Below, piece after piece: positions 731 to 15,030 of a DNA stretch of 38,400 nucleotides. Each line of letters opens with the position of its first letter. Position 1 is the stretch's first letter. The DNA lies in the NCBI GenBank assembly GCA_031409375.1, contig JANNXD010000062.1, positions 1-38,400 of the forward strand, given 5' to 3'. The stretch comes from Gammaproteobacteria bacterium (GTDB lineage Bacteria > Pseudomonadota > Gammaproteobacteria > Pseudomonadales > JANQJO01). Below the pieces are notes generated by a model. The model was given only the letters and a program-made list of their open reading frames with translations, had not been told where the DNA came from and ran no database searches. A program made the position numbers and the translations under genes.

Positions 731-1736
731 CTGTGAGTGCGTTTTTAGATGATCAGAACTTCCCGAACTTCTATACTAAAGTGGACCCCGAAGTCCAGAC
801 AAAAATCAAATAATTTAAGATAGAGCCTCACCGACTAGGCAGCTAAACGACGCTGCCTCGTTAGTTCCAGGTTTTTAGTGTTTTAAAAGCCTGAAAATCT
901 TGCCTGTTGTGCTGTGCAACCCTGTGGGCAATACCCGAAGGGTTTGTCCACAAGTGCATAGCGGTTTTACGATGGCAACAGTAACTCGCTCGGCTGATCA
1001 TTGCTGCTTTTACGTCTTGCATATTTATCCAAGATCATCGCACCGCCGCCTGTTGCTGTGTGATACACCAGGATTGGTGTCTGATCACCGATGTCGGTCT
1101 TGCAGAGTTGCTGCTTGAACCTTTCTCTTAACATCGTCGCGACAGGTTCCCGCAGTTCAACATAAGAGCCTGGAATAAGATCACGCCACCTCTATGCCGG
1201 ACGCCGACTAGCCAGTAAACAGGTATCCGCTAGACTTATCCTGCAGCTACATCAACTCCGCAGTTTTGACGCCATCTAAGCATTTCGACACTTGAACGGT
1301 GATTCACTTGTGTTCATCTTCTTATTCCATACCTGATACATTCACTGCACCTTTTCCGTAACGCTCACAACAAAAGCTCTTAACTGATACCGCTTACGGT
1401 GGTTTGTAATCAACCCCTGTAGGTCGATTACGGGAGACCTACTCCCATCTCTTATGCCGCTTGCTGCGGCACACTGATACCGGTGCTCCATACTTGATTG
1501 GGGCCGGTGATCGGCAGCCCTCGCAGTAGGTACGGATAGATGTTGTGCTCAGGGTGACCTTTGCTGGTATTGGGGCCGGGCGCCATGCTTACCAATTCCA
1601 ATTATTTGCGTGGGTTGTTGTGTTGATCTACGCTCCATCAACTATGCCAATAGATTGATCGTATAAGCAGTGCGTTAGAAGATTACAACAGGCTTAATTC
1701 AAAACACCAATATTTACTGCCGTTAGAGAAAGCGAT

Positions 1737-3176
1737 ATGGACGAACAGACTACATCTACAATAATCATCAGCGCGATAGGAGCAAGTTTTACACTGATAG
1801 TTTTTTGTGTAATGGCCCTACTACGCAGAGTCGTTCACACTAACGAAGTACATGTTGTGAGATCCAAACGCAAGACGGTTTCATATGGTACAGGGCAAAC
1901 TAATAATAAAGATGCCGAAGGTTCCATCATCGTTGATCCAGGCACGGTTTACTATGCATGGCCAAGTTGGATTCCTGTTTTGGGTGTAGACGCAAGAACC
2001 TTTCCGAAATCAATCTTTGATGTCAGCCTAGAAGGATATGAAGCATACGATAAAGGGCGATTACCTTTCGAAGTTAATGTTCAGGCATTTTTTCGAATCG
2101 ATGACTTTGATCGAGCAGCAGCACGCATAGAGTCAGCCGACGAGCTTAGAAATCAATTAAGCGGCGTCCTTCAAGGCGTTGTTCGAAGAATATTAGCCAC
2201 TAACGAACTTGAAAGTATCATGCAGGATCGCTCTTCCCTTGGTGAACAGTTCACGAAGGAAATCGATTCACAGCTTGCCCAGTGGGGCGTTAAAACATCG
2301 AAAACCATTGAGTTCATGGATATTCGTGATACCCAAGCTTCTGAGGTTATTGCGAACATCATGGCAAAAGAGAAATCACGCATAGAAATGGAATCTCGCA
2401 CCAAAGTTGCTGAAAACAGTCGAGCAGCGTTGACCGCTGAAATTGAAGCGCAGCAACAAGTTGATCTGCGCAAACAAGAGGCAGAGCAATTGGTGGGGGA
2501 AAGAACTGCATCTACCAAACGCGCTGTTGGTATTGCAGATGAACGAGCACAACAAGAGATTCAAGTTGAAGCCAAAACTACAGCAGAGCGAACTAAAGCT
2601 GTTCAGCAAATGAATGATGTCCGTGCCGCAGAAATCAAAAAAGACGTAGCCGTTGTTGATGCTGAAGGACAAAAACAGGTCGCTGTTGTGAAGGCAACCG
2701 CTGACAAGGCGGTTGCAGTTACCAAAGCTCAAGCTGACAAAGAGGTTGCCGTCACGAATGCCAATGCGGACAAAGACTCAACCATTCTCATTGCAGAAGG
2801 AAATTTGATCTCTCAGAAGAATCACGCCGAAGGCATTCAAGCTGTCGGTATTGCCCAAGGTATCGCCGATAAAGCTAAATTGATGGCCCCAGTCGATGCC
2901 CAAATAACACTTGCAGATAAAATCGGTGGCGATGACAAATATCAGGCTTATCTTGTTAGTGTTCGGAATCTTGAAGCCATCGAAAAAATTGGCATTGCAA
3001 ATGCCCAAGCCCTGGAAAACGCAGAGATAAAAGTGATTGCCAATGGAGGAACTGTCACAGAGGGCATTGGCTCTATCGGAGAAATATTTTCCGCTAAAGG
3101 CGGTACAAAGCTTGGAGCCATGATCTCAGCGCTAAAAAACAATCCCGACATTGCCTCGATGGCCGAGAAGATTTAG
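1737..3176 (+). CDS. Flotillin-family SPFH/band-7 membrane protein (YqiK/FloT-like)
   Basis: It has an N-terminal TM helix (IIISAIGASFTLIVFCVMALL). An SPFH-like core follows, then a long Ala/Glu/Lys/Gln-rich coiled-coil with repeated 'KAVAVTKAQADKEVAVTNANADKD' units typical of the flotillin domain. The size is 479 aa. Confidence 0.8.
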   Translation: MDEQTTSTIIISAIGASFTLIVFCVMALLRRVVHTNEVHVVRSKRKTVSYGTGQTNNKDAEGSIIVDPGTVYYAWPSWIPVLGVDARTFPKSIFDVSLEGYEAYDKGRLPFEVNVQAFFRIDDFDRAAARIESADELRNQLSGVLQGVVRRILATNELESIMQDRSSLGEQFTKEIDSQLAQWGVKTSKTIEFMDIRDTQASEVIANIMAKEKSRIEMESRTKVAENSRAALTAEIEAQQQVDLRKQEAEQLVGERTASTKRAVGIADERAQQEIQVEAKTTAERTKAVQQMNDVRAAEIKKDVAVVDAEGQKQVAVVKATADKAVAVTKAQADKEVAVTNANADKDSTILIAEGNLISQKNHAEGIQAVGIAQGIADKAKLMAPVDAQITLADKIGGDDKYQAYLVSVRNLEAIEKIGIANAQALENAEIKVIANGGTVTEGIGSIGEIFSAKGGTKLGAMISALKNNPDIASMAEKI

Positions 3177-3282
3177 GAGGCATTAGAAATGCTGTGTAAA
3201 TCCACTAACACCAGGGGATCAAGTTTAATGCTTAACGCTGGGTTTGATTGAATCACCCAATGAAGACACAAACAAATAACAA

Positions 3283-5199
3283 CTAAATTCTCCTGTCGGA
3301 TAAAAACTGTTTCATCCGTCCATATGACGCCTGGAGAACAGGCTGTAACTGCTGATACTGCTGCATAAGATCGCCGCGCAGTATCTGTAATTGTGCGATA
3401 CCCGCACGTAATTCGGCCTGCAACTGGGTACGCTTGAATGCAAAACGTTGCTTTAATACCAAAATATCTTGGGGATCCACGCCCTGCTTTGGATCAAATA
3501 CAAACCAAGCCTGCAAACGCTGACGCCAATCGAGTAACTCATAACTAACTTTAGTACTAAAGCTCGGAATGTATCGCACACGTTCCAATTCCACATCGGC
3601 AGCCGTTTCAACGCCAAAGGACAATAGCATCGCGCGACGCGTGACACCAATTGCCGGAATGGTGGTATCGCTCACCAAAAATCTATCCAAAAATTTTTGC
3701 AATTGACGCTGACGAAGCTGATCTTTTAATGCTTGCTGCGCACGCAAAAACTGCTCAGCTAATGATTCATACTCAGCGCGAGCCTGACGTAAGCGTTGCC
3801 GCAACATAAAAAACGCGTGCTGTTGCGACAAACCCTGCAACTTATCTTGCCACTGCTGATACTCGCGCTGCGCATGTTGCGCCATTTTTTGGCGCCGCTG
3901 CTGTTCAGCCGACAAATCTACGTTCGGCAAAAAAAGGGCGCTGACAAAAAAAATCAGTAATTCAATTTGCCATGGCCAGAGATAAAATCCGTCCCAAACC
4001 ATCACGCAGATGCTGAGCTTGCTTAAGCGATAAATCCATTGTGATTGACGCATTCTCGGGGGTATCGCTAAGGGTTGCACTTTGATTTCAGTCACAATAG
4101 GCAGCGGCGGATCGGTGACCGCCATAATCTGCGACCACACAGCGGCCAAATCAAAATCTCCCTCCACTGATTCATTCAGTAGGGATAAAAAGAAATACAC
4201 GCCTGCACGATCCTGATGTTCACACCAAGGACACAGCGATAAACCACGCCAATACGTATGCAGGCTGGCTTGAGAACACCGCTGCAAGTCTGACTGACAC
4301 AAACTTAAAGCTTCCATCCACTGCCGTGGCAAAGGGCGAACCATTTGATCTGGGCTCTCAGTGACCACAAACGCCTGCGAAAATAATTGACGCAAAATCG
4401 GGGGCAAAATCGCAGGCGAAATACTGTTCGGTGGCGGATGCAAGCCACGCCGTGCTGCGTCATCGGCAAAAGCATAGGCGTTTTCAGCAATCGATTGTTC
4501 TAAGCTGCGATCACTATGATCGGCACGTACACCAGCGTAAGGGTGCCGCCCCATCAACAGCAAATGAAAAATCAACATCGCCAAACCAAAGCAATCTTGA
4601 TTAATGTCACGAATTAATCCACGAAACGATGCCTCATGCTGTAATTCTGGTGGCATAAAATGCGGCACCCCAACGTCACAGCCAAAAACCTGTTGATCGT
4701 GACTAATCTGAAAAGAATCACAATCAATCAATCGGATCAGCCCCTTGCCATCCACATAAACCAGATTGGGATTCACATCGCCAATGACATGATGATGTGC
4801 ATGAATGACGTCAAACACGCTCGCGATATTACGCGCCACATGCAGCAAAAAAGCCCAACTTTTATCCGGAAATTTTTGTTTGCGCTGAGCAGGACTATAG
4901 AGATGATGTAGCGGCTCATATGCACTGAGTTTGGGCATGATCAAGCCACATACGTCATCGCTGCCCCGAAATACCAAGGCAACCGGCCAAGCCGCCACTT
5001 TTAATAAGGCGGGTGTGGAGACTCCGACAAGTGCTTTGAGTTTTTGTTGTTTAGCAATGGGCAAGGGCTCATGATAAATTTTCACTGCCGCATTTAAACT
5101 CGGCAATTCATAGACGGCGCCTTCTCCGCCACTGCCCAATTTTTTACCCAGCGTCAGCGTCTGTCCAGAAGCGTCCGTGAATTCCGACAGGGTGCTCAT
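3283..5199 (-). CDS. Atypical eukaryotic-like Ser/Thr protein kinase with C-terminal tandem helix-hairpin-helix (YegI-like, TerY-P triad kinase)
   Basis: Gly loop LGSGGEGAVY; beta3 Lys in AVKIY; divergent catalytic loop HHHVIGDVNPNLV; Mg-binding DCDS in place of DFG; PPE in place of APE; DCFGLAMLIFHLLLMGRHPY (subdomain IX). The mid region has C-x6-C...CPWC, then a ~28-aa hydrophobic segment, then a Gln/Arg-rich coiled coil. C-terminal IPAIGVTRRAMLLSFGVETAADV plus a second HhH-like repeat. At 638 aa it is close to E. coli YegI (~648 aa). Confidence 0.75.
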   Translation of the reverse strand: MSTLSEFTDASGQTLTLGKKLGSGGEGAVYELPSLNAAVKIYHEPLPIAKQQKLKALVGVSTPALLKVAAWPVALVFRGSDDVCGLIMPKLSAYEPLHHLYSPAQRKQKFPDKSWAFLLHVARNIASVFDVIHAHHHVIGDVNPNLVYVDGKGLIRLIDCDSFQISHDQQVFGCDVGVPHFMPPELQHEASFRGLIRDINQDCFGLAMLIFHLLLMGRHPYAGVRADHSDRSLEQSIAENAYAFADDAARRGLHPPPNSISPAILPPILRQLFSQAFVVTESPDQMVRPLPRQWMEALSLCQSDLQRCSQASLHTYWRGLSLCPWCEHQDRAGVYFFLSLLNESVEGDFDLAAVWSQIMAVTDPPLPIVTEIKVQPLAIPPRMRQSQWIYRLSKLSICVMVWDGFYLWPWQIELLIFFVSALFLPNVDLSAEQQRRQKMAQHAQREYQQWQDKLQGLSQQHAFFMLRQRLRQARAEYESLAEQFLRAQQALKDQLRQRQLQKFLDRFLVSDTTIPAIGVTRRAMLLSFGVETAADVELERVRYIPSFSTKVSYELLDWRQRLQAWFVFDPKQGVDPQDILVLKQRFAFKRTQLQAELRAGIAQLQILRGDLMQQYQQLQPVLQASYGRMKQFLSDRRI

Positions 5200-5217
5200 G
5201 GGATTGCCCGCATGATC

Positions 5218-5979
5218 TTATTCAACACCAACCGATTCAATATCCACCGATAAGCGAGTCGCCAGCACCAGGGTTTTATCATCATCGGTGCGGTCATTCA
5301 CACTGGCACTGTGCAAAAAACTTTCGAGCTGTTGATGCAGCAAGGGCAAGTGCTGCCGACGCCGTAATTGCTGCCACATGGGCGCAAAAAATTCATGATG
5401 CGGGGTTTTCTGCGAATAATTTAATGCTAAACGCTGCAAGCCATCACTGAGCATGGCGATTTCCGTGATACTGACCGTCACCTTACATAACTGTAGATTC
5501 GCGAGCGCTGTATCATCGGTGAGGAAATGCGTCATATTGGCATAAGTCCCTTGCTCTGGCCAAAATACCACACCTTGGGTAGATCCATTACTCACCACCA
5601 TGGCACCATCACCAATCTGGGCAAACCAAGCTTGGTTTTGGCTGATGACAGCGAGCAATAGGGTACAAGCATAATCACGCGGACTCAAACCCTTTTGCTC
5701 AGCAAAGCAACATAAAGCTTGCCTTAACTGCTCAACACAATGAGACAACTGCTCCAGCGTCATATCACCCTGTGCAATCGAGTGGATATAGGTTGGTAAA
5801 TGCTCAATCACATAATTTGCACCTTCACCGCCATGAGTGGCGCTACCCGCCCCATCACTGACAATACCAATCCAATAATGCTGATCGGCTTGCACATGAC
5901 ACGCGTCTTGACATGATTGCTGATTGTCAGCGTGCGAGCTCCCTACCACCGAAGCGAACAAACTTCTCCACTTGAGCAT
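5218..5979 (-). CDS. PP2C-family Ser/Thr protein phosphatase (YegK/PphC-like, TerY-P triad phosphatase)
   Basis: Metal-binding motifs IGIVSDGAGSATHGGEGAN and FAQIGDGAMVV are characteristic of bacterial PP2C_2. It is 253 aa, the same size as E. coli PphC. The stop lies 18 nt before the kinase start, indicating an operon. Confidence 0.75.
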   Translation of the reverse strand: MLKWRSLFASVVGSSHADNQQSCQDACHVQADQHYWIGIVSDGAGSATHGGEGANYVIEHLPTYIHSIAQGDMTLEQLSHCVEQLRQALCCFAEQKGLSPRDYACTLLLAVISQNQAWFAQIGDGAMVVSNGSTQGVVFWPEQGTYANMTHFLTDDTALANLQLCKVTVSITEIAMLSDGLQRLALNYSQKTPHHEFFAPMWQQLRRRQHLPLLHQQLESFLHSASVNDRTDDDKTLVLATRLSVDIESVGVE

Positions 5980-5982
5980 CAG

Positions 5983-6675
5983 TTATAACTCAGCCCAACC
6001 CTGCGGGGCATCCAGCGGCACCGCCGTACCTGGAACCGAGCGCGACACGGATTTCATCGAGTTCGACAACCACTGAAATAACTCACGAAATTTTAGGCCA
6101 TCCAACTTCAGTGGTTCACGTACGGCTAACTGTTTTAGAATCGTCATATTTGCGTTAGCGACACCAACAGCAAAGAAAGCAAAGGCTTTACTGGTTTCGC
6201 CTTCGCGAATTGCATTCGCGGCGGACTGCCACTCATCCGTTGGTGCACCATCGGTAATTAAAAAAATCCAGGGCCGATAAAAGGCAATGCCATTGCTACG
6301 ATACATTTCTTTGCGCAACCGCACTTTATCTAGGGCATCTAAAATGGCCGCGCCCATAGGGGTATCGCCTTGCGCGGCTAACGATGGCGGCTGAAAATTT
6401 GGTGCAGTATGGAAATCATTCACCATGGTCACCGGGCCAAAACTGATCAGCGCAACTTCTATGCGCTTCATCGCCAAAGAATCGGTCAACAGCTCTTCTT
6501 TAAAAGCCTGTAATCCTGCATTCAAGGCGGCAATCGGCGCCCCTTGCATGGATGCCGACGTGTCCAGCAATAAGATGCACGGGCAACGAGGTTCAGGGTT
6601 ATCTGCAAAGCTATCCGTACCAAAAAAACTATCCGTACCGAATGGGGTTTGTTCATCAAAGGTCATATCCACCAT
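5983..6675 (-). CDS. von Willebrand factor A domain protein (TerY/YegL-like)
   Basis: MIDAS motif D-x-S-x-S (LLLDTSASM); downstream conserved Thr in GDTPMG and Asp in ITDGAPTD. Size is 230 aa. It sits 3 nt upstream of the PP2C gene. An N-terminal [12 protein letters not shown] mini-duplication is present. Confidence 0.8.
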
Positions 6676-6782
6676 CGCGTGCGGCCTCCACAGAGCAATT
6701 CTGTACGAGCATACGGAAATATTGTGTGAAGTTAAAGTGTAAATGCGTTAGCGACTTACAATCCAACCTGCTAGCCAACCTT

Positions 6783-7652
6783 TTACAAAAAAGCTGCTAT
6801 CAACTCATCCACACAATCCACACGCTCTGCAGCACTTAATGCCAAAGCATGCGACAGCGCTCGCCACTCACGACGGTTTAACATCATCAACTTACTCGCA
6901 GGCAAGTCACGTTTTTGTGCTTGCTGAGCGTTGAAGCTTTTCCATGGTCTATTACCAGCAATTAACTCATAAATAACACAAGCAAAAGCAAAAACATCAT
7001 CTTGCCTTGTTAATGGATTACCATTTAATCGCTCAGGACTGACATAAGCAGGCGTAATACCGGCGCGAAAATCGATACGGTTTTTTTTCGTCGATGTTGA
7101 TAATTCACCATAGACACCATCGAGCAAGCAAGCCAAACCAAAATCGATCAACTTGAGCTGACAATCACCATGGATCAGCAGATTACTGGGTTTTAAATCG
7201 CCATGAACTATTTGCTGACGATGTAAATATTGTAACGCTCCACCTAACTGACGAATAAAAACCCGAACCAAATCTAATGGAAAACCGACAGAGTGATGCT
7301 GTTTTAATAGGTCATCCATGCCTTTACCTGGCACGTATTCGAGCACGATATAAGCGATGTCTTCATAGGATGGTAAATGTGAAACATGAAAACCGTAACT
7401 ACGAACAATATTCGGATGTCGCAAGGTCTGTAACAATTCATTTTCCCAAATAAAAGCCGAAAACAGCGCAGGACTACTAAGAAACTTAGGTTTTAAACAC
7501 TTTAATGCCACCCGAACATTCGGCTTAATTAGAAACATAGCATCTGCTGATATTGTTTTGGCCAAATAAACCTCACAAATACCGCCACGACCCAACTTAG
7601 CTTGAATTTGAAAGCATTGATCAATGCAGGTACCTTGGGTTAAAAACGGCAT
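6783..7652 (-). CDS. Hanks-type Ser/Thr protein kinase, kinase domain only
   Basis: All canonical motifs are present: LGRGGICEVY (Gly loop), VALKCL (VAIK), E in ENELLQTL, HGDLKPSNLL (non-RD catalytic loop), DFGLA, SPE (APE), DVFAFACVIYEL. It is 289 aa with no sensor or TM domains. Confidence 0.85.
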   Translation of the reverse strand: MPFLTQGTCIDQCFQIQAKLGRGGICEVYLAKTISADAMFLIKPNVRVALKCLKPKFLSSPALFSAFIWENELLQTLRHPNIVRSYGFHVSHLPSYEDIAYIVLEYVPGKGMDDLLKQHHSVGFPLDLVRVFIRQLGGALQYLHRQQIVHGDLKPSNLLIHGDCQLKLIDFGLACLLDGVYGELSTSTKKNRIDFRAGITPAYVSPERLNGNPLTRQDDVFAFACVIYELIAGNRPWKSFNAQQAQKRDLPASKLMMLNRREWRALSHALALSAAERVDCVDELIAAFL

Positions 7653-7741
7653 AGTACAACAATAACATCCTAATCAAAGCCTGCTTGACGCTTATCACCT
7701 ATCGCTGCATCACAACCATGACTATGCGTAAAAATTCTGAA

Positions 7742-8335
7742 TTAAGCGAGAGCATTCTGTGCAAATGCTTTTTTATCTGGCGGCAACAAGCTACGCGTTA
7801 AACTCCAGTGCAAATCGCCTACATTATAGTGTTCGCTTTTACGAAAGCGCAGTAATGGCAATTGGATACTCATAAAAACACTGTCGATTAATGCTGCATT
7901 AGGATCAGGCTTAATCGGATCAAGTAAAGTAATCACCGCTAAAATACGCGAGGTTCGTCGATCACATAAGATAAAATCGACTTGTTGTCCGGCAATTTGC
8001 TGAAAAGCCGACATTTTGGTTTTTAATGACAATCCTTTGCTAATCTGCACAATATTAGCAATGCTCACTTTCCCTAGAATCAAATACTCATTGCCGACAG
8101 CACGCATCAATGCCGCCAAAAACTTACGTTCTTCATTGGAATAAAAGTGTGACTTTGGCGCATAAGGTAAATCAGAGCGCATGCGCTGACGTGGGTCAAT
8201 GCGTAATATCAACAAGGTTCCAGCCAAGAGCACAAACACAATAATTCCCCAGATGGGTAATGGCATTATCGACAACAACATACAACACCTCACTTTACAG
8301 CCCAATTTAAACCTTGCAACAGAATGCTGACTCAA
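7742..8335 (-). CDS. DUF2726 domain protein (restriction-endonuclease-like fold) with N-terminal TM helix
   Basis: TM helix LPIWGIIVFVLLAGTLLIL. The region EERKFLAALMRAVGNEYLILGKVSIANIV...QQVDFILCDRRTSRILAVITLLD matches the conserved DUF2726 core (ERxF..L...y.h..kV.l.dv...VDFvLcD....vlavIElD). It is the first gene of the minus-strand operon, 89 nt upstream of the Hanks kinase. Confidence 0.65.
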   Translation of the reverse strand: MSQHSVARFKLGCKVRCCMLLSIMPLPIWGIIVFVLLAGTLLILRIDPRQRMRSDLPYAPKSHFYSNEERKFLAALMRAVGNEYLILGKVSIANIVQISKGLSLKTKMSAFQQIAGQQVDFILCDRRTSRILAVITLLDPIKPDPNAALIDSVFMSIQLPLLRFRKSEHYNVGDLHWSLTRSLLPPDKKAFAQNALA

Positions 8336-8561
8336 TAACCAGACAGAAAGCCGTCTTAATTAATGGCGCGAGCTTAGCTCAGCAAGTGTTGTACCAGTAT
8401 TAGCTTTCATCGTTTTTTACGGGATGCTCGCTTTTTTCTAAATTTTGCCAACTGCATCTTCAATAATTAAAAATTATCGTGTAACCGATTGGCGAGATAT
8501 AACATCCTAATCTAGCCTTCTTTCGGTTTGTCAGAACCAACCTACCAAGGATGAGCTTAAC

Positions 8562-10652
8562 GTGCTTAAGGAAGACCAACTGTATCATCGATTACTGGCT
8601 ACCACGGGATACTTAAAACACGGGGCATGGGTTGTTTTTTTGATCAGTGGCACACTCTTACTTGATCTTTACCGATGGCATGCATTCACCTCTCTACTGA
8701 TAACGATTTTGCAATGCCTATTATTTGGCTTGCTCGGCATCGCGCTAATTCAACAGAAACGTCATTTTATGGCAATTCGTATCTGGCAAAACCTCGAACC
8801 ACTTCGTCAAGAAAAAATACAAGCGCAAATTCAAGAAACGGTTTCATCTCGCATTAACGAACTCAAAAAAATGACGCACGCCGCCTTAAAGTCAGCAGCA
8901 ACCTCCAATCAAAACTTTCAAGCAGCTCAGCGTGCCACGCGCCATAAAAGTGAATTTCTGGCAACCATGAGCCATGAAATACGTACACCGATGAATGGCG
9001 TTTTGGGGATGACTGAGTTATTACGCGACACCGAGCTTACGCCGCAACAACAACACTATTTGGATACCATCTGTACTTCTGGTATGACACTACTGACCAT
9101 TATTGATGATCTACTGGACTACTCAAAACTCGAAGCAGGTAAACTGTCGATTGAAAATATTGCCTTTAATTTGCATCGATTAATTGATCAATGTGGTGAT
9201 ATGTTCGCCTTAAACTCCGCTAAAAAACAGCTCCCTTTATTAATTTTTGCACCCACCAATATTCCAGAAACCTTGTATGGCGACCCCACTCGAATTCGTC
9301 AAATTCTTGTCAACCTATTAGGCAATGCTTTTAAGTTCACTGAGAAAGGGGCCATTCATCTCTATGTGACAATCGAACCCTCTGTGTCTGATCCAGCTGA
9401 CGATCAAGCTGACCACCTATCCGATATTCAAACAGGTTATCCGTCAAACAACCATATAGAACAGCAATTTTTCAACATCACCTTTAGCATTCGCGATACG
9501 GGCATCGGAATGACGGCACAGCAAATTGAGCAGCTTTTTCAAGCATTCCAACAAGCAGATCATCATATTAGCCGACAATATGGTGGCACCGGTTTGGGTT
9601 TAGCCATTTGCAAACGTCTAGTCAACTTGATGCGTGGAGAGATTGGCGTACGTAGCCATGCCAGTTATAACAGTGAATTTTGGTTTCGCTTACCGCTTTG
9701 CGTAAAGGGGCTGATCCAGTATCGTTTCGACCCGCAGCGATTACACAATCAAAGCTGCTGCATTGTGAGTGATGATCCTTATCTCATTGCGCAACTTCAA
9801 CAATTACTGAATAGTTGGGGCGGCCATAGTCAAGTCTACTCTCTGAAGAGCGCCATGAAAAAAACGCCCCAGTTAGAATCACTGGCGTTAATCGACTGCC
9901 CACCCACTCAAGGGAATGAGGTGTTAGCGTGGATTACGCCAGCATCCCATCATAAAATTGTGCTGTTGGGCTATGCAGGGACCCTACCGTCCACTCAAAA
10001 CATTACAGAGTCTGGAATTACCGCTGCAATAGAAAAACCCATTTCACCTCTAGCCTTATATCAATGCCTAGAGCAAATGCTGCACAACGCTGAGCTACTT
10101 GAACCAGCGCCAACATCCTTGACTAAATTTCCTATCCAATTTACTCAGCTCGAAATATTGGTGGCGGAAGACAATCTCGTTAATCAGACCGTCGTACGCG
10201 GTATGCTCGGCAAGCTCGGCATTAAGCCCGTCTTCGCCAACAATGGGCAAGAGGCGATCAGACTATTTGCACAAGCCAATCCATGTTTTGATTTAATTTT
10301 CATGGACTGCGAAATGCCAGAACTAGATGGTTTTGGCGCCACAGAGCAGATTCGCCAATATGAGCAACAACATCAGTTAAAAAAAACACCGATCATTGCT
10401 TTAAGCGCACACGCCATGAATGAGCATATCCAACATTGCTTGACCTCCGGCATGGATAAACATATTGCCAAACCAATGAACTTAGATGTATTGAAACAGT
10501 GTTTGATAAATTATTTTCCTACCCATGCTAGATCGACGCCCGCCCCATTCGAGAACGACATGCCAACGAACAACACTGACGACATCAGTCCAGCATCAAT
10601 GCCTGAATTCGATCCACAGGCAAATCTGCGATCTTCAGATTTAAAAAATTAA
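8562..10652 (+). CDS. Hybrid sensor histidine kinase/response regulator
   Basis: N-terminal TM helices; HisKA H-box [18 protein letters not shown]; HATPase_c G-boxes ([21 protein letters not shown]); C-terminal REC domain ([26 protein letters not shown] in IALSAHA). The start is a GTG/alternative start as called by the ORF track. Confidence 0.85.
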
Positions 10653-11421
10653 AATGTTCATGATCCATTAGATGACTTTGTTTAACGTTACCCAAAGCGT
10701 TAAAAATGGTTTCTACTCGACCAGGATGGGTTTTATCCCAATTTTTTAACATTTCTTTAATGACCTGGCGCTGCATATTGTCTTGTGAGCCACATAAATT
10801 GCAGGGAATAATGGGAAATTGCATATATTGGGCAAAATCACTAATGTCACTTTCTTTACAATAAGCCAGTGGACGTATCAAAATGTTTTTTTGATCATCA
10901 CTGAGTAGCTTTGCGGGCATGGCTTTTAAACTACCAGCGTAAAACAAATTCAGAAAAAAGGTTTCAATAATATCTTCCCGATGATGCCCCAACGCTACTT
11001 TAGTGGCGCCCAATTCGTTAGCAACGCGATACAAAATACCGCGACGCAAACGCGAACACAGGGAGCACATGGTTTTACCTGGCTCAATTTTATCCATCAC
11101 CACACTGTAGGTATCCTCTTCAATAATATGAAATGGCACACCTTGCTTGGTGAGATACTCAGGTAAAATATGTTGCGGAAAATCTGGCTGCTTTTGATCT
11201 AAATTAACCGCAATTAATTCAAAATGAATGGGCGCACTCTGCTGCAAACTACGCAACATCTCTAACAAAGTATAAGAATCCTTACCACCCGATAAACAGA
11301 CCATGACCTTGTCATTCGGCTCAATCATGCCGTAATCGACAATCGCCTGACCTGTTAATCGACGCAGTCGTTTTTGTAATTTATTAAATTCTGTTTTTTG
11401 TTTTTTTGCGTGCATATTCAC
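10585..11421 (-). CDS. ttcA: tRNA 2-thiocytidine(32) synthetase TtcA
   Basis: PP-loop SGGKDS; conserved Cys motifs CSLC and CNLCGSQ; 278 aa; typical TtcA N-terminus ([16 protein letters not shown]). Confidence 0.85.
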
Positions 11422-11477
11422 TTTCCTTGAACTTAAAAAAACTCATCTTTACTTCAACTTCACCCTTCGATACCCAT

Positions 11478-12959
11478 TTAGCGTACAAATAACGGGGTTA
11501 TCAGCACCGTCAAAGGTGTACGGATCGATTGAATATAACTGGGTATATCGTAATCAGGTTTAGACGTATCGACATAAAGGTCAAACACCATGGTATAAAT
11601 TTTATCAAGCGGGATATTCGACACTTCAAAACCAATATTGGGCCACTGACCCACGAAGCGCTCTGGATCTACCTTTAAACGCGCATCATCTTGATAAATT
11701 AAATGTACAGGCGTTTGTGAATTGCCTGGAATGGTCAGTGTAGCCAGCGCTTGAAAATTTTCAGGGCTCTTTAACATCCACCAACATTGTTCTGGCTTTA
11801 ACGCTTGCTGTTGTAGTGCATTTTCTGACAAGGATAAACGACCATCAACAATACCTAAAGGTTGATCACCATGCATACCATACACCTGGCTTCCCAATAA
11901 CTGATTCGCATCAACCGAAATCGATACCGAGGTATTCTCAACAAACATCGGCATCCAAGCTGGTGTTTTTGCACGGGTAATCGCTCGCATATTGGCAGCA
12001 GAAAATTGGTACATTACCCATAAATTCATAATGGGCACTTTAGCTAAAATAATAGTCGCCTTCATCTGTACGCTAGCGCGGATTGGACCTTGAAGTACAC
12101 CCTGAACACTGGCATGGAAATTACGATTGGTAATGGTTAAGCCATTACTCGCACCCACCCAATGACCTTGAATCCGCATTTTTAACGTATCTAACAGGCT
12201 CGATTTTTTTTTATCCTCAAAAGCAAAAAACTGCATATCCGTCAATTCGAGTGGATTTTTTAAACTCGAAGCCAACGAATAGTACTGCGTATCTGCAAAA
12301 TAAGTCTCCACATCATAACGCACATAATCATGAGTCGAACGACGAGCGTCTTGCCATAATAAATACACAAAGCGCGGGCCTGACAAAGTGGTGACTTGCA
12401 ATTCTAATAAGGGATTGATCGGTGAAACACCCAAGTGCCAGCGCTCACTACTAGCATCTTGCAACATAAACAACAACTCATCACGTCCATCCCACCTTGC
12501 GGGCACACCAGAATTTGCTATCGCCATTTGTGACAGAAAGGGAAAACCTTCTCGATTCATCTCATCAATTTGAAATGGAATCGGTTCCAACTCGCCATCA
12601 ATCATTGTCGCTAATGATAAATCTGCAATCTGCCATACACGAGCTTTGAGAGGTGATGGCAACTGCGCAGCCGTGAAAGTGATCATTCGCAACTGCTCTG
12701 CTTTTGATAATGGCTGTGTTTTAAATAACGAAAATGAAGATGCCTGAACAGGTAATGCGTACAAAAACAATAAAACGATTAAAACTCCCGTTAAATCAAA
12801 CTGAAATACACAATTTCTAGATAGCTTGTCTAGACTAATTTCACTCAATAAAGTTTTTCTAATGTGTTGCAACATGATGATCATAAATAGCCATGACTGA
12901 ATTTGACCCGCTGAAAACCGATACCTATGCTCGGCATTTGGCAGCGGTGAATGAAACAC
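11478..12959 (-). CDS. Hypothetical exported/membrane-anchored protein (start uncertain)
   Basis: 493-aa ORF with no motif I recognise. The hydrophobic segment LTGVLIVLLFLYALPVQA-SS looks like a signal peptide or anchor. The annotated 5' end overlaps the divergent HD-GYP start, so the true start is probably downstream. Confidence 0.45.
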   Translation of the reverse strand: MFHSPLPNAEHRYRFSAGQIQSWLFMIIMLQHIRKTLLSEISLDKLSRNCVFQFDLTGVLIVLLFLYALPVQASSFSLFKTQPLSKAEQLRMITFTAAQLPSPLKARVWQIADLSLATMIDGELEPIPFQIDEMNREGFPFLSQMAIANSGVPARWDGRDELLFMLQDASSERWHLGVSPINPLLELQVTTLSGPRFVYLLWQDARRSTHDYVRYDVETYFADTQYYSLASSLKNPLELTDMQFFAFEDKKKSSLLDTLKMRIQGHWVGASNGLTITNRNFHASVQGVLQGPIRASVQMKATIILAKVPIMNLWVMYQFSAANMRAITRAKTPAWMPMFVENTSVSISVDANQLLGSQVYGMHGDQPLGIVDGRLSLSENALQQQALKPEQCWWMLKSPENFQALATLTIPGNSQTPVHLIYQDDARLKVDPERFVGQWPNIGFEVSNIPLDKIYTMVFDLYVDTSKPDYDIPSYIQSIRTPLTVLITPLFVR

Positions 12960-14278
12960 ATACCGTGATTGTCACGGAAGACATCCGCAATACATCCGGT
13001 GTATTGGTGGCTAAAAAGGGCATTAAGCTCGAAAAAAATGTTACGGATAAAATATTGCAACATCGATTATTAAAACCTTTGCAAGACTGCGTCAAAATTG
13101 ACCAAGCTATGGATGGTGAACGCCTCTATGCCTATATGCTAGATTGGTTAAGACCGCATCACGATCTGACGACCATCCATCAACAACTGAATATGGATCG
13201 TGCTTTAAAAGCATTGTGTAACCATTATCAAAAATTTACCACCCTTCACCAACTCATCACAGTTTTGCTGACGCAACTCCCTGAAGTATTTAATCGCAGT
13301 TGTTTCGCAGCTTGGCTCGCGACCGCCATTGCGCAACACCGCAAGCTCAGAGTTGATGACACAATCACTGCATTTATCGGCGGACTTTGTCATGATATTG
13401 GTTTACTGCATCTACCTGAAGAGATAATCGTAGGGGAAGCGCAACAAAAACCCAAAGAGTCTCGAACTTTTCAAGCCCATCCGATCATCGGGCAAAAAAT
13501 TATACAAGCCATCTCGGGGTTACCGTCGGCGCTGGCACAGGTTATTTTTGAGCATCATGAAAGTTGTGATGGCACGGGTTATCCCACCAGCAAATTTGGG
13601 GAGCACCTGCATCCCATTGGCCAGATCGTCGCCCTTTGCGACTGCTTATACCCTTTACGTTTTAACCCCAATTCCAACAATCAACGTACTTTGAAAGACT
13701 TACAACCTTACCTGAACCTCAATCAAGAAATACACCTCTATGCTAACTATCAAGCGCTGACACAGCTCCTTCAACAGACCAATTTAAACATTCAACGCAA
13801 TGTTGCCGATGCAGACATGCAGTCTCATTGTGCAAAACTGTTGGAAAATTATCAGTTACTAACTATATGGGGACGCGTCATTTGTGACGTTATGGGTTAT
13901 CTGCCGAAAAACAGTGCCGCTAAAGCCATCAATATCGCGCTTAACATGTTACAAAGTATCAAGAAAATTATTCGTCACTCAGGCCTATTTAATGAAGGCA
14001 TACGACGTTGGATTCAACACGTCAAAGATAATAACAGCAGTGATTCGTTTTCTGAAATGGAAGAAATTGGCTTGATGTATGACGAACTTTTAGCCCATAT
14101 GCGTAAGTTCTATCGGCAAACGGTTTTAATCACTGAGCAAGACTTTTTCAAGGACAATAACTTCGCACATCAAGAAGACATTCTGATTTGTACAGGCTTG
14201 ATGCAACAACTCAATATCAACCAAATACCTGACGTCTTACGAGATGCTAGTTTTAACATCGAAAGCTTTATGGTTTAA
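12893..14278 (+). CDS. HD-GYP domain c-di-GMP phosphodiesterase-family protein
   Basis: HD motif in GGLCHDIGLLHLPEE; HHESCDGTGYP (HD-GYP signature); N-terminal ~150 aa uncharacterised. Confidence 0.8.
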   Translation: MTEFDPLKTDTYARHLAAVNETHTVIVTEDIRNTSGVLVAKKGIKLEKNVTDKILQHRLLKPLQDCVKIDQAMDGERLYAYMLDWLRPHHDLTTIHQQLNMDRALKALCNHYQKFTTLHQLITVLLTQLPEVFNRSCFAAWLATAIAQHRKLRVDDTITAFIGGLCHDIGLLHLPEEIIVGEAQQKPKESRTFQAHPIIGQKIIQAISGLPSALAQVIFEHHESCDGTGYPTSKFGEHLHPIGQIVALCDCLYPLRFNPNSNNQRTLKDLQPYLNLNQEIHLYANYQALTQLLQQTNLNIQRNVADADMQSHCAKLLENYQLLTIWGRVICDVMGYLPKNSAAKAINIALNMLQSIKKIIRHSGLFNEGIRRWIQHVKDNNSSDSFSEMEEIGLMYDELLAHMRKFYRQTVLITEQDFFKDNNFAHQEDILICTGLMQQLNINQIPDVLRDASFNIESFMV

Positions 14279-14327
14279 AAAAACGAAAGCTTTATGGTTT
14301 GAAAATCAAAAGCTTTATGATTTAAAC

Positions 14328-14355
14328 AGTAAGGGCTGTCAATTGACTGCCCTTA
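14328..14355. terminator. Bidirectional intrinsic terminator hairpin between convergent genes
   Basis: 8-bp perfect stem GTAAGGGC / GCCCTTAC with a 12-nt palindromic loop TGTCAATTGACT. It lies between the HD-GYP stop (14278) and the OmpA-like stop (14377), with A/T-rich flanks. Coordinates are +/-1. Confidence 0.5.
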
Positions 14356-14376
14356 CGCTCAAAATACGATACCGCT

Positions 14377-15030
14377 TTACTGCTGCTGTTCATCCGAAAT
14401 AATTTGTACTTCGACTCGGCGATTTTGTTCACGACCCTGCGGGGTATCATTACTCGCGATCGGTTGTGTTTCTCCCATACCCGAAACATAAAAACGCTGT
14501 GGAGCAATCGACTGCGCAATTAAGTAATTCGCCACACTGTGCGCGCGGCGCTCAGATAATGACTGATTAGATTCAGATGAACCCACCGAGTCAGTATGTC
14601 CGGTGACCTGAACTTGTGATTTTTTAAATTCCTTTAATACACTAGCAACGGAATTTAAAACATCATAAAAACTCGACTGAATATCTGCACTATTGGTATT
14701 AAAGGTTAGATTACCGGGCATATTCAAATAAATTGATTTACCTTCACGCGTCACGCTCACGCCAGTATTAGCTAACTTTTGACGCAGCTTTTTTTCCTGA
14801 TTATCAAAATACAAACCCGTACCACCACCCACGGCAGCACCAATTAACGCCCCTTTACCACGATCATGCTTACTGGAAACCGCTGCGCCCATAACCGCTC
14901 CAGCGATAGAACCAATAGCGGCTTTACTGGGTTTGCGCTGCCCCGTGTAGGGATCCGTTGTACAAGCTGATATCAATAATGCTGATGCAACTAAAACCAC
15001 AATTTTTTTCGCAACCATTTCATTTTTCAT
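14377..15030 (-). CDS. OmpA-family lipoprotein with glycine-zipper (YiaD-like)
   Basis: Signal peptide plus lipobox (LLISAC). Glycine-zipper GSIAGAVMGAAV...GALIGAAVGGGTG. C-terminal OmpA_C motif GHTDSVGSSESNQSLSERRAHSVANYL. Confidence 0.8.
   Translation of the reverse strand: MKNEMVAKKIVVLVASALLISACTTDPYTGQRKPSKAAIGSIAGAVMGAAVSSKHDRGKGALIGAAVGGGTGLYFDNQEKKLRQKLANTGVSVTREGKSIYLNMPGNLTFNTNSADIQSSFYDVLNSVASVLKEFKKSQVQVTGHTDSVGSSESNQSLSERRAHSVANYLIAQSIAPQRFYVSGMGETQPIASNDTPQGREQNRRVEVQIISDEQQQ

What the first reader, a model, noticed from the sequence alone, without database searches (positions are those of the whole stretch)
3283..5199. YegI-like kinase carries a C-terminal tandem helix-hairpin-helix, a Cys cluster and a long hydrophobic segment
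The N-terminal ~260 aa are a divergent but complete protein-kinase fold (Gly loop, beta3 Lys, D..N catalytic loop, DCDS metal site). The catalytic-loop and metal-site features are encoded at ~4420-5150. The remaining ~380 aa contain C-x6-C...C-P-W-C and a ~28-aa Trp-rich hydrophobic stretch (ICVMVWDGFYLWPWQIELLIFFVSALFL). A Gln/Arg-rich coiled coil follows. At the C-terminus, IPAIGVTRRAMLLSFGVETAADV is followed by a second HhH-like repeat (nt ~3560-3700). A kinase tethered to a non-specific DNA-binding (HhH)2 module is unusual. It suggests signalling at the nucleoid or sensing of foreign DNA.
Basis: partly seen in the sequence, partly recalled or inferred. Interest (0 to 1): 0.55.

Follow-up and report, generated by a model that had tools for sequence, protein, structure and literature searches.

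The report
YegI-family membrane kinase with HhH tail

Summary
The ORF (3283-5199, minus strand, 638 aa) and every listed feature are real. It is a full-length homologue of E. coli YegI (38% identity over 622 aa). It is preceded, as in E. coli, by PphC-like PP2C (41%) and YegL-like vWA (63%) genes. This order holds in 71 of 74 fetched loci across bacteria and Methanoregula archaea, with no fourth conserved gene.

AlphaFold2 (pLDDT 92) gives this domain order:
- atypical kinase
- two-armed hydrophobic hairpin
- coiled coil
- a 62-residue terminal helix

The fusion is not unusual. [quoted passage not shown] E. coli YegI's hydrophobic segment is a proven two-pass membrane hairpin.

DNA binding has never been tested. 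Here the second hairpin has lost both glycines (GFG to SFS) and the domain has no net charge.

Verdict: a new member of a known, functionally unsolved family. Interest is low to moderate.

The parts
3283..5199 (-). YegI-family Ser/Thr kinase gene, 638 aa, third gene of the triad
   Evidence: ORF. 38% identity over 622 aa to E. coli YegI, E=1e-138. 909 homologues.
4330..5199 (-). Atypical Hanks-type kinase domain (aa 1-290): G-loop aa 22-27 (nt 5119-5136), K40 (nt 5080-5082), catalytic loop IGDVNPNL aa 139-146 (nt 4762-4785), D-C-D-S in place of DFG aa 159-162 (nt 4714-4725)
   Evidence: Motif positions. G24/G25/E26/G27, K40, D141, N143, D159, D161 and S162 are invariant. Pfam Pkinase scores only 24.3 bits, below the 31.7 cut-off, but the fold matches solved kinases. 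In E. coli the D-S-D motif and Ser-162 autophosphorylation are essential.
4222..4278 (-). Predicted zinc knuckle, C308-x5-H314-x8-C323-P-W-C326 (CHCC)
   Evidence: All four residues are invariant in 64 sequences, while C301 is variable. The AF2 model has a beta-hairpin at 305-317 and a helix starting at 324. Kinases of TerY-P triads are described as carrying a C-terminal zinc ribbon (eLife PMC11090510).
3928..4026 (-). Hydrophobic helical hairpin (about aa 392-424; arms LSICVMVWDGFYLW and WQIELLIFFVSALFL around a W-P-W turn); inferred membrane anchor
   Evidence: Aligns with the two transmembrane segments of E. coli YegI, shown there to be a two-pass hairpin with both termini cytosolic. AF2 helices at 381-407 and 409-422. 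It is less hydrophobic than in most relatives (best 15-residue Kyte-Doolittle mean 1.99 against 2.5-3.2) and is absent in 8 of 64 members.
3685..3912 (-). Gln/Arg-rich helical (coiled-coil-like) region, aa 430-505
   Evidence: AF2 helices 430-460, 462-478, 480-493 and 495-505 at pLDDT 94-98. Its length varies widely in long family variants.
3484..3678 (-). (HhH)2 / SAM-like five-helix domain, aa 508-572; hairpin 1 is P-A-I-G-V (515-519), hairpin 2 is P-S-F-S-T (545-549)
3289..3474 (-). Single long C-terminal helix, aa 576-637
   Evidence: AF2 helix 576-637 at pLDDT 93-97. Conserved in the family.
5218..5979 (-). PP2C phosphatase gene (PphC/YegK homologue), 253 aa
   Evidence: Pfam PP2C_2 at 3e-50. 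41% identity to E. coli PphC. Immediately upstream of the kinase in 72 of 74 loci.
5983..6675 (-). vWA protein gene (YegL homologue), 230 aa, with a complete MIDAS (D-T-S-A-S, G-D-T, T-D-G)
   Evidence: Pfam VWA at 8e-7. 63% identity to E. coli YegL. MIDAS residues read from the translation. vWA-PP2C-kinase order in 71 of 74 loci.

Best explanation
The gene encodes a YegI-family (COG4248) Ser/Thr kinase. It is the last gene of a self-contained vWA (YegL-like), PP2C (PphC-like), kinase module, which is a TerY-P-type phosphorylation switch.

Proposed working:
1. A short helical hairpin (about aa 392-424) holds the protein at the inner membrane, with both ends in the cytoplasm.
2. The N-terminal atypical kinase, with D-C-D-S instead of DFG and stiffened by a CHCC zinc knuckle on its C-lobe, is switched on by trans-autophosphorylation when two molecules come together.
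3. The cytoplasmic coiled coil, (HhH)2 domain and terminal helix form the juxtamembrane unit that controls that pairing.
4. The PP2C resets the kinase.
5. The highly conserved vWA protein is the MIDAS-dependent partner or substrate.

Shown in E. coli only: kinase activity, essential Ser-162 autophosphorylation, second-order kinetics, dephosphorylation by PphC, and two-pass topology.

Shown here: orthology, domain anatomy, invariance of the CHCC set, the HhH fold, and triad conservation.

Inferred: the role of the C-terminal unit in pairing, the role of the vWA protein, and the ligand of the HhH domain. I put non-specific duplex-DNA binding at about 40% for canonical G-F-G members. It is less likely for this S-F-S, net-neutral copy.
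For: - Full-length homology of all three proteins to YegI, PphC and YegL.
- Triad order conserved in 71 of 74 loci from many phyla and archaea, with no fourth conserved gene.
- Confident AF2 model, pLDDT 92.1 and pTM 0.79, with the stated domain order.
- Kinase fold confirmed.
- Invariant K40, D141, N143, D159, D161, S162 and C308/H314/C323/C326.
- E. coli biochemistry and topology (bioRxiv 10.1101/819920 and 10.1101/303594).
- Family variants add a third TM segment plus TonB_C, SH3, PG_binding_1 or TPR domains after the terminal helix. This places the coiled-coil-HhH unit just under the membrane.
Against: - No experiment exists on this protein.
- Its hairpin is less hydrophobic than in most relatives and carries D403 and E412, so membrane insertion rests on homology.
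- 8 of 64 relatives lack the hairpin altogether, so membrane anchoring is not essential to the family's function.
- No substrate, stimulus or phenotype is known even in E. coli, where the operon is barely expressed.
- The model of the HhH domain leans on the family alignment, so it cannot show that the degenerate hairpins of this copy still work.
- Pairing through the C-terminal unit was not modelled, because no multimer prediction was available.
Confidence: 0.75

Rival explanations
1. The (HhH)2 domain is a real non-specific DNA-binding module. The triad would then be a TerY-P-like defence or DNA-surveillance system. DNA appearing at the inner face of the membrane, such as injected phage or conjugative DNA, clusters the kinase and switches it on.
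For: - G-Phi-G hairpins and near-invariant R521/K522 in the family.
- The best fold matches are DNA-binding HhH modules.
- The COG name says the same.
- Related TerY-P modules with an OB-fold on the kinase act as stand-alone antiphage systems, and others accompany Type IV restriction systems (eLife PMC11090510).
- Overproduced YegI and YegL raise DNA damage in E. coli (bioRxiv 10.1101/354589).
- Some loci lie beside toxin-antitoxin, helicase or R-M genes.
Against: - No PADLOC defence model named for TerY-P matched any of the three proteins. The kinase hit only generic kinase models, and the vWA hit nothing.
- No conserved effector or nuclease gene lies beside the triad.
- Many loci, including this window, are in housekeeping surroundings.
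- The HhH domain is only weakly basic (median +2) and neutral here, and hairpin 2 is S-F-S.
- DNA binding has never been tested.
Confidence: 0.2
2. The HhH-like domain works as a SAM-like protein-protein or oligomerisation module, as in NusA AR domains, the RAD51C N-terminal domain or ERCC1-XPF. It has nothing to do with DNA. It docks the vWA or PP2C partner, or pairs two kinase molecules.
For: - Net charge is near zero, and E531, D535, E563 and D569 are conserved acidic residues.
- The window's clade tolerates loss of the hairpin glycines.
- E. coli YegI autophosphorylation is second-order.
Against: - The sequence signature in most members is the classic HhH G-Phi-G, with hits to HHH_5 and the Y-family thumb rather than to SAM models.
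- No interaction data exist.
Confidence: 0.35
3. The module is an envelope-stress signalling device. The membrane hairpin, not the HhH domain, is the sensing element, and the kinase reports membrane or cell-wall perturbation.
For: - Family variants append an extra TM segment and periplasmic-type TonB_C, PG_binding_1, SH3_3 or TPR domains.
- Two-pass membrane topology in E. coli.
- SPFH/NfeD genes lie nearby in this window and in L005.
Against: - 8 of 64 members have no hydrophobic hairpin.
- The periplasmic loop is only a few residues long.
- The SPFH neighbour is not conserved.
- The extended variants are a minority.
Confidence: 0.2

Closest known systems
E. coli YegI (b2070), with PphC/YegK and YegL; COG4248 with COG4245
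   Same: - Collinear over the full length, at 38% identity.
- Same atypical kinase motifs (G-D-V-N catalytic loop, D-x-D-S instead of DFG, Ser-162).
- Same CHCC motif, hydrophobic hairpin, coiled coil, HhH pair and terminal helix.
- Same vWA-PP2C-kinase gene order.
   Different: - D-C-D-S here (the family norm) against D-S-D-S in E. coli.
- Catalytic loop is N-P-N here against N-Q-N-S in E. coli.
- The hairpin arms are shorter, less hydrophobic, and carry a clade-specific W-P-W-Q-x-E turn.
- HhH hairpin 2 is S-F-S instead of G-F-G.
- There is no yegJ insertion.
- The chromosomal neighbours differ.
TerY-P triad (TerY-like vWA + PP2C + Ser/Thr kinase; Anantharaman et al. 2012, as summarised in eLife PMC11090510)
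   Same: The same three components in one operon, with the kinase followed by a zinc-binding knuckle.
   Different: - The described TerY-P kinases end in a zinc ribbon (CoCoNuT-associated) or an OB-fold (the Gao 2020 antiphage version).
- This family continues into a membrane hairpin, coiled coil, (HhH)2 domain and long helix.
- There is no linkage to ter genes, McrBC/CoCoNuT or any other conserved partner.
- No TerY-P-named PADLOC model matched.
(HhH)2 domains of Y-family polymerase thumbs, RNAP alpha-CTD, RAD51/RadA N-terminal domain, UvrC, Hef/XPF
   Different: - Embedded between a coiled coil and a long helix, just under the membrane.
- Weakly basic to neutral.
- Hairpin glycines are lost in this copy.
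- No nucleic-acid enzyme is attached.
Membrane-anchored Hanks kinases such as PknB/PrkC
   Same: Bilobal kinase fold, activation-segment autophosphorylation, and a cognate PP2C in the same operon.
   Different: - No extracellular PASTA-type sensor.
- A two-pass hairpin with both ends cytoplasmic.
- Lacks the HRD, DFG and other conserved residues.
- Scores below Pfam's Pkinase threshold.

Membership tests
YegI family (COG4248) | Full-length collinear homology to E. coli YegI | tested here: met
   BLASTP gives 38% identity over 622 aa, E=1e-138, covering kinase, Zn motif, hairpin, coiled coil and HhH.
YegI family (COG4248) | Atypical kinase motifs: G-D-x-N catalytic loop, D-[SC]-D-S in place of DFG, with Ser-162 | tested here: met
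   D141, N143, D159, D161 and S162 are invariant in the alignment and present here. Their importance in E. coli is described.
YegI family (COG4248) | Two-pass membrane hairpin with both termini cytosolic | tested here: inconclusive
   A homologous two-armed hydrophobic element is present and predicted as a helical hairpin. It is less hydrophobic than usual and contains D403 and E412. Topology itself cannot be tested with these tools.
YegI family (COG4248) | C-terminal helix-hairpin-helix region | tested here: met
YegI family (COG4248) | Operon with a PphC-like PP2C and a YegL-like vWA protein | tested here: met
   PP2C at 41% and vWA at 63% identity to the E. coli proteins, directly upstream on the same strand. 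The same holds in 71 of 74 loci.
YegI family (COG4248) | Mn2+/Mg2+-dependent Ser/Thr autophosphorylation, reversed by the PP2C | not testable with these tools
   Known only for the E. coli proteins.
TerY-P triad | vWA + PP2C + Ser/Thr kinase encoded together | tested here: met
TerY-P triad | Kinase followed by a zinc-ribbon-type metal site | tested here: met
   Invariant C308/H314/C323/C326, on a predicted beta-hairpin plus the start of a helix. Metal binding itself was not tested.
TerY-P triad | Association with ter genes or with DNA-restriction or DNA-processing systems | tested here: not met
   No gene other than the three is shared across lineages in 80 loci. The window's neighbours are housekeeping or signalling genes.
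TerY-P antiphage system (Gao 2020 type) | Match to defence-system models; kinase with a C-terminal OB-fold; phage protection | tested here: not met
   PADLOC gave only generic kinase (PD-T4-6, mad6) and PDC-M21C hits, and none for the vWA. The C-terminus is HhH, not an OB-fold. Phage protection is not testable here.
(HhH)2 DNA-binding domain | Two HhH motifs with G-Phi-G hairpins | tested here: not met
   The family consensus meets it (G-F-G in 52 of 64; G518 in 92%). This protein has A-I-G and S-F-S, and its fragment matches no Pfam HhH model.
(HhH)2 DNA-binding domain | Five-helix pseudo-two-fold fold | tested here: met
(HhH)2 DNA-binding domain | Sequence-independent binding of the duplex-DNA backbone | not testable with these tools
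   As a crude proxy, the domain's net charge is 0 here and the family median is +2.
Hanks-type protein kinases (Pfam PF00069) | Score above Pfam's gathering threshold | tested here: not met
   24.3 bits against a cut-off of 31.7.
Hanks-type protein kinases (Pfam PF00069) | Bilobal kinase fold with a beta3 Lys and a catalytic Asp | tested here: met
   Foldseek TM 0.6-0.72 on the target against CaMKII, FGFR2, Aurora and others. K40 and D141 are invariant.

The most novel reading that the evidence does not exclude
The YegI-type triad is a widespread stand-alone immune or DNA-surveillance sensor found in bacteria and methanogenic archaea. The juxtamembrane (HhH)2 domain would detect DNA arriving at the inner face of the membrane, cluster the kinase and trigger a vWA-dependent response. 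The window's clade, with S-F-S in place of G-F-G, would be a natural variant in which that DNA contact has been altered or lost.
Probability: 0.15. Interest if true: 0.7.

Novelty: new member of a known kind. Interest (0 to 1): 0.25.

Why it matters
Taken by itself, this locus adds one more divergent member to a catalogued family, so its importance is limited.

The family is still worth attention, for these reasons:
- It is one of the most widespread Ser/Thr kinase modules in prokaryotes. It occurs in at least 582 species-representative genomes, including archaea, and its C-terminal module has about 1,000 cluster representatives.
- It has a biochemically characterised E. coli member.
- It still has no known stimulus, substrate or phenotype.
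- In the papers I could read, nobody has tested the zinc site or the HhH domain.

The anatomy worked out here gives concrete handles for experiments:
- the invariant CHCC site
- the juxtamembrane coiled-coil-(HhH)2-helix unit
- natural variants that lack the hairpin
- natural variants that carry envelope-binding extensions
- natural variants that have lost the HhH glycines

Tried and rejected
1. **A conserved fourth partner.** I clustered the flank ORFs of 80 loci. Only the three triad genes recur across lineages. The next cluster (16 loci) is Competibacteraceae-specific synteny.
2. **SPFH/Band-7 as a partner.** The 471-aa neighbour in the closest relative's locus is unrelated to it, and no SPFH match turned up in the 80 loci.
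3. **The adjacent canonical kinase and DUF2726 as part of the module.** They are absent from all 80 loci.
4. **The C-terminal module on non-kinase proteins.** The profile search returned only truncated fragments of the same family. In the exhaustive search, a few proteins appear to lack the kinase but carry envelope domains. I could not check whether they are split genes, because look-ups are restricted to other protein sets.
5. **Sequence-profile search of PDB with the C-terminal alignment.** It gave only weak REV1 and Pol IV thumb hits, plus coiled-coil noise.
6. **Reading Anantharaman et al. 2012 (PMC4104200) and the FEBS Letters YegI paper (PMC7658054).** Neither is held. I used the bioRxiv versions and the eLife summary instead.
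7. **Identifying the source genome.** The exact protein is not on record in the contig index, and the best species-representative match is only 43% identical.
8. **First structure job.** I re-ran it without that row.
Full report
The minus-strand ORF 3283..5199 encodes 638 aa.
- GSGGEG at aa 22-27
- K40 in AVK
- the GDVNPN catalytic loop at aa 140-145
- DCDS at aa 159-162
- CQSDLQRC at aa 301-308
- CPWC at aa 323-326
- the Trp-rich hydrophobic stretch at aa 397-424
- IPAIGVTRRAMLLSFGVETAADV at aa 514-536
- a second hairpin-like element around PSFS at aa 545-548

These features are not chance. The protein has 909 homologues in the first search, mostly about 640 aa and full-length. The kinase motifs are invariant in a 63-64 sequence alignment.

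**What the gene is.**
Two genes lie directly upstream on the same strand: a PP2C_2 phosphatase (5218..5979) and a vWA protein (5983..6675). I fetched the E. coli K-12 yegI region and compared the three proteins directly:

| Window protein | E. coli protein | Identity |
|---|---|---|
| kinase | YegI | 38% over 622 aa, E=1e-138 |
| PP2C | PphC/YegK | 41% |
| vWA | YegL | 63% |

This is a collinear family member in the family's normal operon.

JGI names the family [quoted passage not shown], and NCBI names it "helix-hairpin-helix domain-containing protein". [quoted passage not shown] Its partner COG4245 is the TerY-type vWA protein. The fusion called "unusual" is therefore the catalogued signature of the family.

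**Anatomy.**
AlphaFold2 on a 63-sequence alignment gave a confident model, with mean pLDDT 92.1 and pTM 0.79.
- *Kinase.* Residues 1 to about 290 match solved protein kinases (Foldseek TM 0.6-0.72 on the target). Pfam Pkinase stays below threshold at 24.3 bits against 31.7.
- *Zinc site.* The alignment corrects the "Cys cluster". C301 is variable. C308, H314, C323 and C326 are invariant in all 64 sequences, giving C-x5-H-x8-C-P-W-C. In the model they sit on a beta-hairpin (aa 305-317) and at the start of a helix (aa 324), which is the geometry of a zinc knuckle. This fits the description of TerY-P kinases as carrying a C-terminal zinc ribbon (eLife PMC11090510).
- *Hydrophobic segment.* It is a hairpin of two arms around a W-P-W turn, with helices at aa 381-407 and 409-422.
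- *Coiled coil.* Helices span aa 430-505.
- *HhH region.* Three short helices span aa 519-564.
- *Terminal helix.* A single 62-residue helix spans aa 576-637. The HhH pair is therefore not at the extreme C-terminus.

**The HhH claim.**
The family consensus reads IPGIGPxRKATLASFGIETAADI ... IxGFGxxLTxELVxWR, which is two classic G-Phi-G hairpins.
- Of 26 C-terminal fragments, 16 match Pfam HHH_5 (best E=7e-5) and 12 match the Y-family polymerase thumb model IMS_HHH_1. The window's own fragment matches nothing.
- A profile of the region weakly hits the REV1 and Pol IV thumbs in PDB.
- Foldseek puts the same classes first, but no match reaches E<=0.001 for so small a domain.

The fold is (HhH)2/SAM-like.

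Two caveats apply to this copy:
- Hairpin 2 is S-F-S where 52 of 64 relatives have G-F-G, a state shared only with P0003. Hairpin 1 keeps only the near-invariant G518.
- The net charge of the domain is 0 here, and the family median is +2.

The model also inherits the fold from the family alignment, so it cannot show that this degenerate copy still functions.

**The hydrophobic segment.**
In E. coli YegI the homologous region was mapped with PhoA-LacZ-alpha fusions. Fusions at 414 and 432 behaved as periplasmic or transmembrane. Fusions at 340, 390, 439 and 646 behaved as cytoplasmic. YegI is therefore a two-pass inner-membrane protein with both ends in the cytosol (bioRxiv 10.1101/819920). The second refutation test, "a buried core helix", is also not met.

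Here the arms are short and less hydrophobic: the best 15-residue Kyte-Doolittle mean is 1.99 against 2.5-3.2 in most relatives. They carry D403 and E412 within a clade-specific W-P-W-Q-x-E turn. Membrane insertion of this copy therefore rests on homology.

Eight of 64 relatives (607-624 aa) lack the hairpin entirely yet keep the triad, as in P0088/L005.

**Context and distribution.**
- A scan of species-representative genomes found at least 582 genomes with a relative. They include Gamma-, Beta- and Alphaproteobacteria, Chlorobi, Paenibacillus, cyanobacteria, Chloroflexi, Planctomycetes, Acidobacteria, Bacteroidota and many Methanoregula archaea.
- In 74 fetched loci with enough upstream DNA, 72 have the PP2C immediately upstream and 71 have vWA-PP2C-kinase in order.
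- Clustering all flank ORFs showed no fourth gene shared across lineages. The module is self-contained and has no adjacent conserved effector.
- The C-terminal 208 aa alone recover 1,005 cluster representatives at E<=1e-10, nearly all with the match at about aa 440-640 of a protein of about 640 aa.
- Longer variants keep the two ends and expand the middle. Others add a third hydrophobic segment, a Pro/Ser/Thr-rich linker and a TonB_C, SH3_3, PG_binding_1 or TPR domain after the terminal helix. That places the coiled-coil-(HhH)2-helix unit directly under the membrane and links part of the family to the cell envelope.

**What is known functionally.**
- E. coli YegI is an active, Mn2+-preferring Ser/Thr kinase. 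Its D-S-D motif cannot be changed to DFG. Ser-162 is essential, and autophosphorylation is second-order.
- PphC dephosphorylates YegI.
- Expression is barely detectable, and no stimulus, substrate or phenotype is known.
- Overproduced YegI and YegL are both among the proteins reported to raise endogenous DNA damage in E. coli (bioRxiv 10.1101/354589).
- None of the papers I could read discusses the zinc site or tests the HhH domain. A search for papers combining helix-hairpin-helix, PP2C, vWA and kinase found none.
- Related TerY-P modules accompany CoCoNuT Type IV restriction systems. With an OB-fold on the kinase, they act as antiphage systems.
- Against PADLOC, the kinase here matched only generic kinase models, the PP2C matched a candidate model (PDC-M21C) and the vWA matched nothing.

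**Most likely mechanism.**
I read this as a membrane-tethered phosphorylation switch:
1. The hairpin anchors the protein.
2. The coiled coil, (HhH)2 domain and terminal helix govern pairing of two molecules, and so trans-autophosphorylation on Ser-162.
3. The PP2C resets the kinase.
4. The strongly conserved MIDAS-bearing vWA protein is the partner or substrate.

The identity and anatomy are shown here. The enzymology and topology are shown only in E. coli. The role of the C-terminal unit and of the vWA protein is inference.

Whether the HhH domain binds DNA, acts as a SAM-like protein-interaction module, or both, remains open. For this copy the degenerate hairpins and neutral charge lean against strong DNA binding.

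**Verdict.**
The claim of unusualness is wrong, and the DNA-sensing idea is untested. This is a new, somewhat degenerate member of a known family whose function is unsolved. Interest is low to moderate.

Noticed in passing
window 6783-7652 (-) and 7742-8335 (-): Directly upstream of the triad, on the same strand, lie a stand-alone canonical Hanks kinase and a DUF2726 protein with an N-terminal hydrophobic segment. The kinase is 289 aa, with Pfam Pkinase at 2e-42 and strong PADLOC matches to mad6 (1e-55) and PD-T4-6 (2e-45). The locus therefore has two kinases in a row, but the pair is absent from all 80 related loci.
   Followed up: partly
window 1331-1446 (-): A strong Rfam match to group II intron domains D1-D4 (RF01999, 102.6 bits) lies in the roughly 1-kb ORF-poor gap between the Usp and SPFH genes. 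There is no D5/D6 match and no intron-encoded protein ORF, so it looks like an intron remnant about 2 kb from the kinase gene.
   Followed up: partly
window 3000-7000 compared with 7000-15000: G+C is 0.465-0.489 across the triad and 0.41-0.42 in the following 8 kb. This is compatible with horizontal acquisition of the triad.
   Followed up: no
P0058, P0065, P0072, P0076, P0088, P0092, P0097, P0100 (e.g. L005:8001-9833): About one in eight family members (607-624 aa) lack the hydrophobic hairpin entirely. At least P0088 still sits in a vWA-PP2C-kinase triad. These look like natural soluble variants.
   Followed up: partly
P0360, P0113, P0280, P0262, P0326, P0347, P0371, P0356: Variants add a further hydrophobic segment after the terminal helix, then a Pro/Ser/Thr-rich linker, then a TonB_C, TPR, SH3_3 or PG_binding_1 domain. 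P0347, P0371 and P0356 appear to have no kinase domain at all. They may be split genes or truncated ORF calls, or genuine kinase-less forms.
   Followed up: partly
P0004 (717 aa, 66% identical to the window protein): The hydrophobic hairpin is tandemly duplicated...LWYWPWQIELLVLCAQVLFLP... and ...YCYWPWRIELLVLWMRCLFLP.... This suggests recent internal duplication of the membrane element in the window's own clade.
   Followed up: no
L017-L064 (many loci): A large share of the best genome hits are Methanoregula and other Methanomicrobiales archaea, and they carry the same vWA-PP2C-kinase order. That is a striking cross-domain distribution for a 'eukaryotic-like' kinase module.
   Followed up: partly
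L001:4675-6027 (E. coli yegD) and L006:10842-12236: An Hsp70-family gene (yegD) lies next to yegI in E. coli, and a DnaJ-domain gene lies next to the Ralstonia homologue. This chaperone link is anecdotal and did not show up as a conserved neighbour in the 80-locus clustering.
   Followed up: partly
window 5983-6675 (-): The vWA protein is much better conserved between this organism and E. coli (63%) than the kinase (38%) or the phosphatase (41%). This suggests it is the most constrained component of the module.
   Followed up: no
window 26766-26839 (-) and 26924-27010 (-); 20042-24460 (-): There are two tRNA genes, plus a 1,472-aa SNF2-family helicase with about 1,000 N-terminal residues that match no Pfam model.
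   Followed up: no
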